IMG/VR virus record: IMGVR_UViG_2802429234_000005
Location: 1 to 52,974 of that record
Strand: one strand, 5' to 3'
Source: a virus
Taxonomy: Duplodnaviria > Heunggongvirae > Uroviricota > Caudoviricetes
DNA length: 52,974 nucleotides
Shown: piece by piece, positions 9,001 through 12,000 of the stretch
Numbering within the stretch: the first letter of the stretch is position 1
Layout: each line of letters opens with the position of its first letter
Program-made: the position numbers

Positions 9001-12000
9001 TTTTAAACGTTTTGCTTTTGGTATACATCATAGCGGTGAACGTGCCGTCATGGTTTGGGAACACGCCACATACCAGAGATTCGTTGTTGCCGAGGTCGAT
9101 TTTTTGCATTTTGCTGACCTTACATCTTGTTGCTGCGTATAGCGGCTTCTGCCTGACAGAGATCCCAGTCATTCCTGCGTAGAGCCTGTACATAGTTGCT
9201 CCGTAACGTGGAGCCTACGACCTGCTTTTAACCACATCAGGTGAGGTGATATCCTTACAAATGGTCATTTACTGTAAGGATATTAATTAAGAAGGTTTTT
9301 TCTATGCTCGAAAATCAAACCATGAAGGTTGCCTGCCCTGATTGCGGTAGCGAGATGTTCAAGCGGCCCGATGATTTTGACTTTGACACTAATTTCGTTG
9401 GCGTTAGTTGCGCCGAATGTGGTCGAGAAATCACCAGGGACGATGTTATTAAGCAAGGAAAAAATGTTGTTCATGAACAGGTCAATGACATGCTCAGGAA
9501 CGCCCTCAAAGGCAGCAGGTGGAAGTTTTAATAACTTCAGAATCGCACTAAGCTGATCCTCCGCTTCCGTAGCGTCTATAGAAAGTTCGATAGGCGCTAT
9601 TTTCATTTCTGCCATACATCACCTCACTCATTTCCCCTTAACGCCGGGTGGCGGAACTGTTTGCTGAGAACACCGTGCGGTGTCTTGATGTAAACAAGAT
9701 TAGTCATGGCTAACAATTAGGTCAAGTGTTTTTGTTTGCCATGACTAACATTTATGGCAACAAAAAAGATAACACATTGATTGTGTTATCTTTTGTTTGT
9801 TCGTTGACGGGCTTTTAATAATTCTTCAAAGAGTTTGTTGAAATTTTTTACTCGGGCGCGCATCTCGGTGAGCTGAGCATCCTGTTCTGATTCAGGCAAT
9901 GCATTAAAAAGCTCAAGGAGCTCGTGTTCTTTGGGGGATAAAGCAACTGGCTCCTCAATAGGTGGTGATGGCTGCTTGTCTTCATCGCCAAATAGAATCC
10001 ATGTTGGCGAGCACTGCAGTACATTGCTGAGGGCAAAAAGATTCTTCCCTGTAGGTTCGCTATCATCCCGTTCCCATTGTGAAACCGATACATGAGAAAT
10101 TTTCAGGGCTTTAGCAAGAGACCTTTGGGTGTATTTGAGGTTTTTTCGGCGATACCTAATGCGTTCGCCAATGGTTAAATTTTTTGTATCCATAGTTAGC
10201 TAATGCTAAATCTTATTGACTATGTTTTTGTTAACATCTATTTTGTTAGTCATGACTAACAAGCGGGTGCTTTAAATGCTTAAAACTGACGCACTTTTGT
10301 ATTTCGGTTCAAAAACAAAACTTGCACAAGCTGCTGGTATTCGTTTGGCTTCGCTTTATAGCTGGAAAGGGGAGCTAGTACCTGAAGGTCGCGCGATGCG
10401 CCTGCAAGAGGCATCTGGCGGGGAGCTTCAGTACGACCCCAAAGTTTATGACGAATATCGTAAGGCAAAACGACCTGGGAAGGTGATTCATGAAAATCAG
10501 GCATGAGCACATCGAATCAGTGCTGTTAGCCCTGGCAGCCGAAAAAGGGCAGGCGTGGGTCGCTAACGCAATTACTGAAGAATATCTGCGGCAGGGGGGC
10601 GGCGAATTGCCCCTGGTACCAGGCAAGGACTGGAATAATCAGCAGAACATCTATCACCGCTGGTTGAAAGGCGAAACAAAAGCGCAAAGGGAAAAAATTC
10701 AGAAGCTGATCCCAGCAATTCTGGCAATTCTTCCGCGCGAGCTGCGTCACCGACTCTGCATCTTCGATACCCTGGAACGCCGAGCATTACTGGCGGCGCA
10801 GGAAGCGTTGAGTACGGCAATTGATGCGCATGATGATGCAGTCCAGGCCGTTTACCGTAAGGCGCATTTTAGCGGCGGTGGGTCTTCCGACGATTCTGTC
10901 ATTGTTCATTAAGCAAAAGTTTCCATGCTGGTTGTGCTTATTCTAAGCCACCGGGCAGCATCATACGGGGCAATTATGGCCGCATTACCATACATGCAAC
11001 TGTACATAGCTGATTACCTGGCTGACACCATGCATTTGTCAGCAGAGGAACACGGTGCGTATTTGTTGCTGATGTTCAATTACTGGCAAACAGGAAAGCC
11101 AATACCCAAAAACAGGCTGGCAAAAATTGCCCGTCTGACTAACGAGCGATGGGCTGATGTTGAACCATCCTTGCGGGAGTTTTTTTGCGATAACGGCGAC
11201 GAATGGGTGCATCTTCGGATTGAGGAAGATCTGGCATCAGTCAGGGAAAAGTTAACCAAAAAATCAGCCGCAGGAAAAGCATCTGTTCAGGCCAGAAGAA
11301 GCAGAAAGGAAGCAGATGTTCAAACAAAACAAGAGAGAAATTTAACAGGTGTTCAAACATATGTTGGAGTGGTGTTTGAACATGATGCCAACACAAAAGC
11401 AACTAATAAAGATACAGATCTAAAAGAATTAAACCCCACACATAACGCGCGCGTACGCGAGAGTACTCCGACAAGTGAATCGAACGGTACGCCATCGCAG
11501 ACAACGGAACCCGAATATCTTGACGGCCTGATTGAACCCATCGGGAAATTTCCGATGACCGATGGCTGGCATCCGTCGCTGGATTTTCGACGACGGGCTG
11601 CACTGTGGGGCGTTGCCCTGCCAGAGCCGGAATTTACACATGCCGAACTTGCTGCCTTCCGGGACTACTGGACGGCGGAGGGGAAAGTTTTCACGCAGGT
11701 TCAGTGGGAGCAGAAATTCGCCCGTCACGTAAATCACGTCAGGGCGCAGGTTAAACCAGTCAGCAAGGGGGTGAGCCATGCAGCAGCACCAGGTGGCACC
11801 GCATCACGGGCAGTTCGGGAAATTCGGGCAGCACGTGAACAGTGGGAACGTGAAAACGGATTTATCAGCGACGGAAACGGCGTGGAAGCTGTGGGAACTC
11901 ATGGGGGAGGTTTATTCGAACCGCTGGACTCAGAAGAACGGGGCCGCACCTTCGAAGCTCTGGATTGCACAGATTGGCGCGATGACTGAGCAGCAAATCC

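What the first reader, a model, noticed from the sequence alone, without database searches (positions are those of the whole stretch)
9690..10260. Three copies of a 14-bp operator palindrome (TTAGTCATGACTAA) bracketing the repressor gene
A perfect palindrome lies in the racR/ydaS divergent intergenic region (10246..10259) and two near-copies lie downstream of racR (9700..9713, 9735..9748), mirroring the lambda OL/OR arrangement around cI. They are candidate binding sites for the repressor and/or Cro-like protein and define the immunity specificity.
Basis: seen in the sequence. Interest (0 to 1): 0.45.

Follow-up and report, generated by a model that had tools for sequence, protein, structure and literature searches.

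The report
DicA repressor operators flanking dicA
The three palindromes are real and are the binding sites of a prophage repressor, but that repressor is the well-studied DicA of Qin-type prophages, not RacR, so this is a correct sighting of an already described genetic switch.

Summary
The three sites are at the stated coordinates. The best one extends to a perfect 20-bp palindrome, TTGTTAGTCATGACTAACAA (10243-10262). The three best matches to it in 53 kb all lie within 570 bp around the repressor gene (0.03 expected by chance).

The gene names are wrong. The repressor is DicA and its divergent partner is DicC. The window has no RacR or YdaS homologue. It is a prophage at the Rac locus, with a Rac-type left arm and ydaT, that carries a Qin-type immunity cassette (about 9627-10499).

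The intergenic palindrome differs by one central base from K-12 operator Oc, which DicA binds in vivo (Yun 2012). It overlaps the -10 and start of the dicC promoter. The two downstream sites flank the -35 and cover the spacer and -10 of the leftward early promoter (dicBp/PL equivalent).

Position and spacing hold in 22 dicA loci, including Citrobacter and Serratia. A DicA-family repressor with a different recognition helix (PPompW) has different words at the same positions.

So the lambda-like OR/OL reading is right. The system is already known. Only the PL-side sites appear, in the papers I could read, never to have been mapped biochemically.

The parts
10243..10262 (.). Oc-equivalent operator: a perfect 20-bp palindrome TTGTTAGTCATGACTAACAA (core 10246-10259). 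It is the main DicA site between dicA and dicC, and overlaps the end of the -10 and the start region of the dicC promoter.
   Evidence: It is 19/20 identical to K-12 Oc, TTGTTAGTCATAACTAACAA, which DicA binds in vivo and where one A-to-C change abolishes binding (PMC3441716). It starts 69 nt before the dicA ATG in E. coli, Citrobacter and PhiR42_1, and 81 nt before the first aligned codon in Serratia, where the N-terminus of the match is missing.
9697..9716 (.). Promoter-proximal left operator (core 9700-9713). On the minus strand it reads TTGTTAGCCATGACTAATCT. It fills the spacer of the leftward promoter and its last six bases are the -10.
   Evidence: It is orthologous to the site in the K-12 dicA-ydfA interval where dicBp lies. 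It is conserved in 22 loci, with only transitions in the inner bases.
9732..9751 (.). Promoter-distal left operator (core 9735-9748). On the minus strand it reads ATGTTAGTCATGGCAAACAA and ends 6 nt upstream of the -35. One half-site is degenerate.
   Evidence: The distance to the proximal site is 35 bp centre to centre here and in all E. coli-type loci, 36 bp in Citrobacter and 35 bp in Serratia.
10196..10209 (.). Fourth, weaker candidate site, TTAGCTAATGCTAA, probably the 'Oa' of the literature. It abuts the dicA start codon.
   Evidence: It is one of only three TTAG-N6-CTAA matches in the window. A site in the same frame sits at the same offset in Citrobacter, Serratia, PPompW and the distant L066 and L075. 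Yun et al. report that DicA did not bind Oa alone, so its ligand is unknown.
9697..9725 (-). Leftward early promoter (dicBp / lambda PL equivalent). The -35 TTGACC is at 9725..9720, the spacer is 17 nt, and the -10 TAATCT is at 9702..9697. The predicted start is about 9689-9691.
   Evidence: It was read from the sequence and from alignment A1 to the K-12 dicA-ydfA interval. The -35, the -10 and a CATCAA start region are kept in Citrobacter and Serratia. The simple scan did not report it because the -10 matches only 3 of 6 bases. The start site is an inference.
10216..10244 (+). dicC promoter (lambda PR equivalent): TTGACT, 17 nt, TATTTT.
   Evidence: This is the only sigma-70-like hit in 9500-10400. 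It corresponds to the dicC -35/-10 drawn by Yun et al..
9786..10193 (-). dicA, a 135-aa repressor with an N-terminal HTH domain like that of P22 C2 and no protease domain.
   Evidence: NCBIfam NF007257 DicA scores 235.7 bits (cutoff 101). Pfam finds HTH_3. The closest solved structure by sequence is the P22 C2 N-terminal domain, E = 2e-19. It is 92.6% identical to K-12 DicA, and the recognition helix is identical.
10276..10506 (+). dicC, the Cro-like partner (76 aa).
   Evidence: NCBIfam NF007282 DicC scores 150 bits (cutoff 130). Pfam P22_Cro scores 44.5 bits.
9764..9794 (-). Hairpin followed by a T run at the 3' end of dicA, a likely terminator. It separates dicA transcription from the leftward promoter.
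   Evidence: One search reports a 13-pair stem on the + strand. The stem sequence is symmetric, and on the minus strand it is followed by TTTTTTGTT. It is also present in K-12 and M00057.
16942..17199 (+). Homologue of Rem, the antirepressor that relieves DicA repression in K-12 Qin. It is the candidate induction route.
   Evidence: tblastn with K-12 Rem gives 68.6% identity over 86 aa, E = 8e-33. The role of Rem comes from PMC10448788. Its function here is inferred.

Best explanation
The palindromes are the operators of a DicA/DicC (Qin-type) lambdoid immunity switch. In this window the switch has been recombined into a prophage at the Rac locus.

A DicA dimer binds the 20-bp palindrome at 10243-10262. 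This blocks the rightward dicC-ydaT-replication promoter, whose -10 end and start site the palindrome covers. By analogy with K-12, the same binding supports dicA's own transcription.

DicA also binds the pair of sites 35 bp apart at 9697-9716 and 9732-9751. The proximal site occupies the spacer and -10 of the leftward early promoter, and the distal site abuts its -35. RNA polymerase is thereby excluded from the operon that here carries ydaF, kilR, recE and recT.

DicC, the Cro-like protein, probably acts on the same region in the opposite sense.

DicA has no self-cleavage domain, so induction would go through an antirepressor. A Rem homologue is present.

What is shown: gene identities, site positions, promoter overlap, conservation, and covariation with the recognition helix. 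What is shown only in K-12 by others: DicA binding to Oc. What is inferred: binding to the two leftward sites, cooperativity between them, and the roles of DicC and Rem in this prophage.
For: -
- The Oc site is 19/20 identical to the operator tested by experiment.
- dicCp is predicted at 10216-10244 and overlaps Oc.
- Alignment to K-12 Qin shows terminator, site, TTGACC, site, TAATCT downstream of dicA. This is where the literature places dicBp, described as repressed by DicA through predicted operators (PMC10448788).
- Across 22 loci in 14 haplotypes, including Citrobacter (75% DicA identity) and Serratia (65%), all three sites keep their positions. Their bases fit TGTTAG-YYATRR-CTAACA in the E. 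coli-type loci; the weaker sites in Citrobacter and Serratia depart from it at a few outer positions.
- Two GC-rich viral contigs with a repressor about 29% identical have the same word at the same offset upstream of the ATG. In L066 it also occurs as a pair flanking a TTGACA downstream of the gene.
- PPompW prophages have a DicA-family repressor with a changed recognition helix. They have no match to this word, yet they carry TTAG-N6-CTAA sites with other inner bases at the same offsets.
- A Rem homologue is present.
Against: - No binding experiment exists for this sequence.
- For the two leftward sites I found no direct mapping even in K-12. The Reg-Seq paper calls the DicA site at dicB low-evidence and of unknown location (PMC7567609).
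- The -10 of the leftward promoter is weak (3 of 6 bases) and the consensus scan did not report it.
- Yun et al. saw no DicA binding to the two other sequence-predicted operators of the intergenic region, so sequence likeness alone does not guarantee binding.
- The distal left site has a degenerate half-site.
- The bare 14-mer also occurs in many unrelated viral contigs.
- The original papers of Bejar et al. could not be read.
Confidence: 0.88

Rival explanations
1. One reading: these are RacR/YdaS operators of a Rac-family immunity region.
For: The prophage is at the Rac site with intR, recE, recT, kilR and sieB, and its ydaT is 97.9% identical to Rac ydaT. The gene layout matches racR-ydaS-ydaT.
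Against: The window has no RacR or YdaS homologue (E > 0.2). The repressor and Cro-like genes pass the curated DicA and DicC cutoffs. In K-12 Rac, the best 20-mer match around racR has 8 mismatches, and Rac's own repeats are TTAGGC-N3-GCCTAA.
Confidence: 0.01
2. Only the intergenic site is a true DicA operator. The two leftward sites would be bound mainly by DicC or by another factor, or would be decayed relics, and the leftward operon would be silenced by other means such as nucleoid proteins.
For: No direct mapping of DicA at dicBp was found. DicA failed to bind the weaker Om and Oa sites. One half of the distal site is degenerate. Fis, Hfq and H-NS are reported to silence this region in K-12.
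Against: In K-12, dicBp is strongly derepressed when dicA is deleted or Rem is produced. Both sites keep position, spacing and the conserved arms across 65-99% DicA relatives. They change together with the recognition helix in PPompW. The proximal site differs from the perfect site only at the -10 end and by one inner transition.
Confidence: 0.08
3. The repeats are not regulatory. They could be chance palindromes in AT-rich spacers, a restriction-type palindrome (TCATGA), or copies of an unrelated repeat like the one seen in some environmental phages.
For: The 14-mer is found in more than 119 viral contigs, and about 100 of those have no DicA homologue at E below 1e-3. They include clusters of a 26-nt repeat, GCATCTGTTTAGTCATGACTAAAGAG, with no HTH gene nearby. 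The tool's 14-mer test with 3 mismatches is not significant.
Against: Expectation for the 20-mer is 0.03 per window against 3 observed, all around dicA. The sites are orthologous to a tested operator, overlap promoters, and are conserved in position. A collection of that size is expected to hold hundreds of chance 14-mer hits.
Confidence: 0.02

Closest known systems
dicA-dicC immunity region of E. coli K-12 cryptic prophage Qin (operator Oc; promoters dicCp and dicBp)
   Same: - It has the same repressor family (92.6% identical, same recognition helix) and the same Cro-like DicC.
- Oc is at the same offset from the dicA ATG and differs by one central base.
- The terminator, site, -35, site, -10 layout downstream of dicA is the same.
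   Different: - Here Oc is a perfect palindrome (G instead of A at the centre), as in most loci sampled.
- The operon under the leftward promoter is Rac-type (ydaF, kilR, recE, recT) and has no dicB or DicF.
- A rare plus-strand gene is inserted just below the promoter.
- The cassette sits in a prophage at the Rac locus.
Phage lambda OR/OL with cI and cro
   Same: - Repressor and Cro genes are divergent.
- One operator set lies between them, over the rightward promoter.
- A second set lies beyond the repressor gene, over the leftward promoter.
- Repression works by promoter occlusion, and the switch is reported to be bistable.
   Different: - The operator sequence is unrelated, and the sites are 20 bp rather than 17 bp.
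- There is one strong site plus weak ones at the right, and two sites 35 bp apart at the left, rather than three adjacent sites each.
- The repressor has 135 aa and no RecA-cleavable domain, so induction is by antirepressor.
Phage P22 immC (C2 repressor and Cro)
   Same: The DicA N-terminal domain is the closest sequence match to the solved P22 C2 DNA-binding domain (E = 2e-19). DicC matches Pfam P22_Cro.
   Different: DicA lacks the C2 C-terminal cleavage and oligomerisation domain. From memory, P22 operators use a TTAAG-type half-site, not GTTAG; this was not tested here.
RacR-YdaS-YdaT region of K-12 prophage Rac
   Same: The layout is the same, including operator, TTGACA, operator, TATAGT downstream of the repressor gene. 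ydaT and the left arm are nearly identical.
   Different: The repressor is unrelated (RacR, 158 aa). The operators are 15-bp TTAGGC-N3-GCCTAA words.
PPompW-type DicA-family immunity region (Stx2a phage-associated prophages)
   Same: The repressor is 135 aa (87/135 identical). The TTAG-N6-CTAA frame sits at the same offsets, the leftward pair is 36 bp apart, and the leader is nearly identical.
   Different: The recognition helix differs (AHVTISQWER), and so do the inner hexamers and flanking bases of the sites. It is presumably heteroimmune.

Membership tests
DicA/DicC (Qin-type) immunity region | The repressor belongs to the DicA family. | tested here: met
   NF007257 scores 235.7 bits against a cutoff of 101. 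It is 92.6% identical to K-12 DicA.
DicA/DicC (Qin-type) immunity region | A divergently transcribed DicC (Cro-like) gene is present. | tested here: met
   NF007282 scores 150 bits against a cutoff of 130. Pfam P22_Cro also matches.
DicA/DicC (Qin-type) immunity region | A 20-bp inverted-repeat operator Oc (TTGTTAGTCATAACTAACAA) lies between dicA and dicC over the dicC promoter. | tested here: met
   19 of 20 bases are identical at 10243-10262. It overlaps the predicted dicCp -10 at 10239-10244.
DicA/DicC (Qin-type) immunity region | Operator-like repeats overlap a leftward promoter downstream of dicA (dicBp). | tested here: met
   The alignment to the K-12 dicA-ydfA interval shows both sites, the -35 and the -10. 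They are conserved in 22 loci.
DicA/DicC (Qin-type) immunity region | DicA protein binds the sites and represses both promoters. | not testable with these tools
   Only K-12 data exist: in vivo assays and a crude-extract EMSA for Oc. None was found for the leftward sites.
DicA/DicC (Qin-type) immunity region | The leftward operon carries dicF and dicB. | tested here: not met
   There is no DicF Rfam hit and no dicB by tblastn. kilR, ydaF, recE and recT are there instead. This is cargo, not part of the switch, so it shows mosaicism rather than excluding the operators from the family.
RacR/YdaS (Rac) immunity region | RacR repressor and YdaS are present. | tested here: not met
   tblastn gives E > 0.2 for both.
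RacR/YdaS (Rac) immunity region | Rac operator word TTAGGC-N3-GCCTAA. | tested here: not met
   The window sites use a 6-nt inner spacing with TCATGA-type centres. In the repressor-flanking stretch scanned (130 nt upstream of the dicA ATG to 260 nt past its stop), the window has no TTAG-N7-CTAA or TTAG-N7-CTA word, and the Rac region has no good match to the 20-mer.
Phage P22 C2-type repressor system | The N-terminal HTH domain is homologous to C2. | tested here: met
   phmmer against PDB chain 1adr_A gives E = 2e-19 over residues 7-71.
Phage P22 C2-type repressor system | A C-terminal RecA-dependent self-cleavage (S24-like) domain is present. | tested here: not met
   The protein has 135 aa and Pfam reports only HTH families. 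The literature notes that the Ala-Gly cleavage site is absent.
Lambda-type OR/OL switch (functional analogy only) | Two operator sets flank the repressor gene, and each overlaps an early promoter. | tested here: met
Lambda-type OR/OL switch (functional analogy only) | Three adjacent 17-bp sites per operator set, with cooperative repressor binding. | tested here: not met
   There is one strong 20-bp site plus one or two weak ones at the right, and two sites 35 bp apart at the left. Cooperativity cannot be tested here.

The most novel reading that the evidence does not exclude
Three things remain open.

1. The pair of sites at the leftward promoter seems never to have been mapped by footprinting in the papers I could read, even in K-12.

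2. DicA-family immunity types may share a fixed TTAG-N6-CTAA frame, in which the inner hexamer and the base just outside the arms set heteroimmunity. This is suggested by comparing the DicA and PPompW types.

3. The conserved fourth site against the dicA start codon may overlap the -10 of a nearly leaderless dicA promoter. It could be the preferred site of DicC, like lambda OR3 for Cro. DicA at Oc and at the leftward pair (511-546 bp apart) might also loop the DNA.

None of these is shown here.
Probability: 0.3. Interest if true: 0.3.

Novelty: already known. Interest (0 to 1): 0.15.

Why it matters
This tells an annotator that the prophage is homoimmune with Qin-type (DicA) prophages, although it sits at the Rac site and has Rac-type early genes.

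It follows that DicA made by any co-resident Qin-like prophage would be expected to silence this prophage's kilR/recET operon and its replication genes, and the reverse. One search shows up to 6 matches to this region per E. coli genome.

It is also a clean example of an immunity cassette exchanged as a unit, with joints at about 9627 and 10499. The cassette contains exactly both promoters, all operators and the two regulators.

Beyond that, it adds nothing new to how such switches work.

Tried and rejected
- A scan of viral contigs for the bare 14-mer was meant as a specificity test.
- The multi-copy clusters in L035, L042, L057 and L020 looked like distant operator sets. They are a longer 26-nt repeat with no HTH gene nearby.
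- The genome-contig scan with DicA returned only 5 loci. Two of them (Citrobacter, Serratia) were still useful.
- The consensus promoter scan did not report the leftward promoter. It was placed by alignment instead.
- An Rfam search and folding (z = -0.49) of the conserved leader downstream of the leftward promoter gave nothing.
- A search for a LexA-box consensus, which could tie Rem to the SOS response, found no match in the window.
- NCBIfam gave no family for the Rem homologue or for the extended sieB ORF.
- The original papers of Bejar et al. 1986 and Cam et al. 1988 are not held, so their operator assignments are cited second-hand.
- I tried to place a dicA promoter by eye. Only a weak TAGCAT inside the fourth site could be proposed, and I leave that as speculation.
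Full report
**1. The observation**

- TTAGTCATGACTAA at 10246-10259, a perfect match
- TTAGTCATGGCTAA at 9700-9713, one mismatch
- TTTGCCATGACTAA at 9735-9748, two mismatches

Taken as a 14-mer with up to three mismatches the signal is weak: 4 matches against 1.8 expected. The symmetry, however, extends further.

- 10243-10262 is a perfect 20-bp palindrome, TTGTTAGTCATGACTAACAA.
- 9732-9751 matches the 20-mer with 3 mismatches and 9697-9716 with 4.
- The next best match anywhere in the 53-kb window has 6 mismatches.
- Matches with up to 4 mismatches are expected 0.03 times per window, both analytically and in 200 block shuffles (largest count 1). Three are observed, all within 570 bp.
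- The relaxed frame TTAG-N6-CTAA occurs three times in the window against 0.39 expected, always beside the same gene. This adds a fourth site, 10196-10209, which abuts the repressor's start codon.

**2. The genes**

- The repressor ORF (9786-10193, minus strand, 135 aa) scores 235.7 bits against the NCBIfam DicA model, whose cutoff is 101.
- The divergent 76-aa ORF (10276-10506) scores 150 bits against DicC, whose cutoff is 130.
- Pfam sees HTH_3 in the first and P22_Cro in the second.
- The closest solved structure by sequence is the DNA-binding domain of the P22 C2 repressor, E = 2e-19.
- tblastn with K-12 RacR and YdaS finds nothing in the window (E > 0.2).
- Rac YdaT, by contrast, matches 10490-10909 at 97.9%.

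The surrounding prophage is Rac-like. It has ttcA, intR, RalA/ralR, recT, recE, kilR (96% to Rac KilR), sieB and ydaF on the left, and ydaT and ydaU on the right. There is no dicB and no DicF. E. coli genomes that carry dicA match the window only over about 9627-10499.

So a Qin-type immunity cassette sits inside a prophage at the Rac site. The cassette consists of the leftward promoter, dicA, the intergenic region and dicC.

**3. Anatomy**

On the plus strand the only sigma-70-like promoter in 9500-10400 is TTGACT, 17 nt, TATTTT at 10216-10244. The 20-bp palindrome starts inside the -10 and covers the expected start site of dicC.

Read in the dicA direction, the DNA downstream of dicA shows the following:
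- a hairpin with a T run that overlaps the stop codon (9764-9794)
- the distal site ATGTTAGTCATGGCAAACAA
- six bases
- TTGACC (9725..9720)
- a 17-nt spacer largely occupied by the proximal site TTGTTAGCCATGACTAATCT
- the last six bases of that site, TAATCT (9702..9697), which are the -10

The same order is present in K-12 Qin between dicA and ydfA. That is where dicBp lies, the promoter that DicA represses.

The two leftward sites are 35 bp apart centre to centre. They are 511 and 546 bp from the intergenic site.

**4. What is known**

In K-12 the intergenic operator Oc is TTGTTAGTCATAACTAACAA. The evidence is as follows (PMC3441716):
- Cloned on a multicopy plasmid, it titrates DicA.
- Placed before a reporter, it confers DicA-dependent repression.
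- A single A-to-C change abolishes that repression.
- A crude-extract gel shift supports binding.
- DicA bound at Oc represses dicC and is needed for dicA expression.
- The two other sequence-predicted operators, Om and Oa, were not bound.

The window's site differs from Oc by one central base, which makes it a perfect palindrome.

Ragunathan and Vanderpool (PMC10448788) state, citing Bejar et al. 1986 and 1988, that both the dicA-dicC interval and the dicA-dicBp interval contain operator sequences like those of lambda PR and PL. They also report that DicA represses dicBp, that DicA lacks a RecA cleavage site, and that the antirepressor Rem relieves repression.

The Reg-Seq study recovered the DicA site at dicC. 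It notes that the DicA site at dicB is low-evidence and of unknown location (PMC7567609). The leftward sites therefore appear to be predicted but not mapped. I could not read the 1986 and 1988 papers.

**5. Comparative evidence**

I collected 22 loci with a DicA homologue, falling into 14 distinct site haplotypes. They come from viral contigs, E. coli genomes, a Citrobacter (75% protein identity) and Serratia rubidaea (65%).

- In every E. coli-type locus and in Citrobacter, the strong site starts 69 nt before the dicA ATG.
- In Serratia the site lies 81 nt before the first aligned codon. The tblastn match there begins at residue 7 and the true start was not fixed, so the real offset is close to the others.
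- In all loci two sites lie downstream of the gene, 35-36 bp apart. They flank a -35-like hexamer (TTGACC, TTGCC or TTGCAA).
- In all loci the -10 is formed by the right end of the proximal site.
- A CATCAA motif at the predicted start is also kept.
- In the E. coli-type loci, variation within the sites is limited to transitions in the inner bases, giving TGTTAG-YYATRR-CTAACA. In Citrobacter and Serratia the weaker sites also differ at a few outer positions.

Two GC-rich viral contigs (L066, L075) encode a repressor only about 29% identical. They carry TTGTTAGTCATGACTAAT at the same offset upstream of the ATG. L066 also has a pair of sites flanking a TTGACA downstream of the gene.

The PPompW prophages give a natural control.
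- Their 135-aa DicA-family repressor is 87/135 identical, but its recognition helix is different: AHVTISQWER against SHVSVSQWER.
- Their best match to the 20-mer has 9 mismatches.
- They nevertheless have TTAG-N6-CTAA sites at ATG-66 and ATG-15, and as a pair 36 bp apart downstream of the gene, with different inner hexamers and flanking bases.
- The leader just beyond is about 96% identical to the window.

The word therefore changes with the protein while the architecture stays. That is what is expected of immunity-specific operators.

K-12 Rac has the same architecture again, with a third word, TTAGGC-N3-GCCTAA.

The cassette also occurs in a sequenced phage, PhiR42_1. There the genes are annotated cI, Cro and cII.

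**6. Specificity**

The bare 14-mer is not unique to DicA loci at metagenome scale.
- It was found in at least 119 viral contigs, which is where the scan stopped.
- About 20 of these adjoin a close DicA homologue and two adjoin a distant one.
- The rest have none.
- Some of the rest hold several copies of a longer unrelated repeat.

For a 14-mer in a collection of that size this is expected, and it does not bear on function within one genome. I could not count sites in the host genome. A published table lists only Qin-internal targets for DicA (PMC8249747).

**7. Mechanism and confidence**

The best-supported model has three parts.
- DicA dimers occupy the intergenic palindrome and shut off dicC, ydaT and the replication genes.
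- DicA also occupies the pair at the leftward promoter and shuts off the ydaF-kilR-recET operon by excluding RNA polymerase.
- DicC counteracts DicA, and an antirepressor lifts repression. A Rem homologue (68.6% identical) lies at 16942-17199.

I put the intergenic site at about 0.95 and the whole model at 0.88. The leftward sites rest on orthology, promoter overlap, conservation and covariation, not on binding data.

**8. Verdict**

The feature is real and was read correctly in function, but it was assigned to the wrong family. It is the DicA operator set described since 1986-88 and tested in 2012.

Novelty is nil, apart from the mosaic context and the fact that the leftward sites still seem to lack a footprint. 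Interest is low.

Noticed in passing
window 10484-10501: GTGATTCATGAAAATCAG spans the ATG of the ydaT-family gene. It has the TGATT-N6-AATCA inverted repeat of the 'YdaT-box' described for Rac (ATGATTCATGAAAATCAA) and for CP-933P. There it is the site of a CII-like activator that drives a reverse promoter for the repressor (PMC11879457).
   Followed up: partly
window about 9627 and about 10499: These are the mosaic joints. E. coli dicA-bearing genomes match only 9627-10499 at about 96%. ydaT, starting at 10490, is 97.9% Rac-like, and the left arm is Rac-like. The exchanged unit is exactly the immunity cassette.
   Followed up: partly
window 9283-9615: Two ORFs overlap on opposite strands just below the leftward promoter. 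The plus-strand one (9304-9531, 75 aa) matches the NCBIfam ECs_2282 zinc-binding family at 81.7 bits (cutoff 37). The minus-strand one (110 aa) starts where ydfA starts in K-12 but has no family. The segment is found in only 2 of 5426 E. coli genomes, where it is annotated as the plus-strand gene. The leftward transcript would therefore read antisense through it.
   Followed up: partly
window 16942-17199 (+): A homologue of the Qin antirepressor Rem (68.6% identity). No CTGT-N8-ACAG LexA-box consensus occurs anywhere in the window, so what induces it is unclear.
   Followed up: partly
window 10196-10209, and the same offset in L005, L006, L130, L066 and L075: A TTAG-N6-CTAA site abuts the repressor start codon in all relatives, even distant ones. 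No Shine-Dalgarno sequence is visible before the dicA ATG. A TAGCAT (TAGAAT in PPompW) inside this site could be the -10 of a nearly leaderless dicA transcript. That is speculation.
   Followed up: partly
window about 9634-9658 (minus strand): The leader GTTCCGCCACCCGGCGTTAAGGGG, downstream of the leftward promoter, is shared almost unchanged by Qin, PPompW and Rac (which have different immunity types) and partly by Citrobacter and Serratia. It has no Rfam match and no significant fold.
   Followed up: partly
L066 5311-5890; L075 about 1800-2220: These GC-rich viral contigs have an HTH repressor only about 29% identical to DicA. They use the same TTAGTCATGACTAA word at the same offset, with two weaker sites 22 and 25 bp further on. 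In L066 a pair also lies downstream of the gene.
   Followed up: partly
L035 1575-1782 (also L042, L057, L020, L010, L085): Environmental viral contigs carry 3-5 perfect copies of the 14-mer inside a longer repeat, GCATCTGTTTAGTCATGACTAAAGAG. In one copy the central ATG is the start codon of a 190-aa ORF. No HTH gene was seen nearby. This is probably a phage-specific promoter or start-region repeat, unrelated to DicA.
   Followed up: partly
window 2544-2722, 16282-16456 and 19045-19195: Rfam gathering-level hits: the RalA antitoxin sRNA (with ralR), the sok antisense RNA of a hok/sok module, and two adjacent tRNA genes in the late-gene region.
   Followed up: no
window 8236-8252 (minus strand): A 17-nt stretch between kilR and sieB matches the core of K-12 DicF at 16 of 17 bases (blastn-short, E = 0.03). 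This is the region where K-12 Rac has the kilS sRNA. It may be chance.
   Followed up: no
L003 (JAIIUG010000151.1): A 2.5-kb contig labelled as a Collinsella MAG carries a 93%-identical E. coli-type dicA-dicC cassette. This is most likely a binning contaminant.
   Followed up: no
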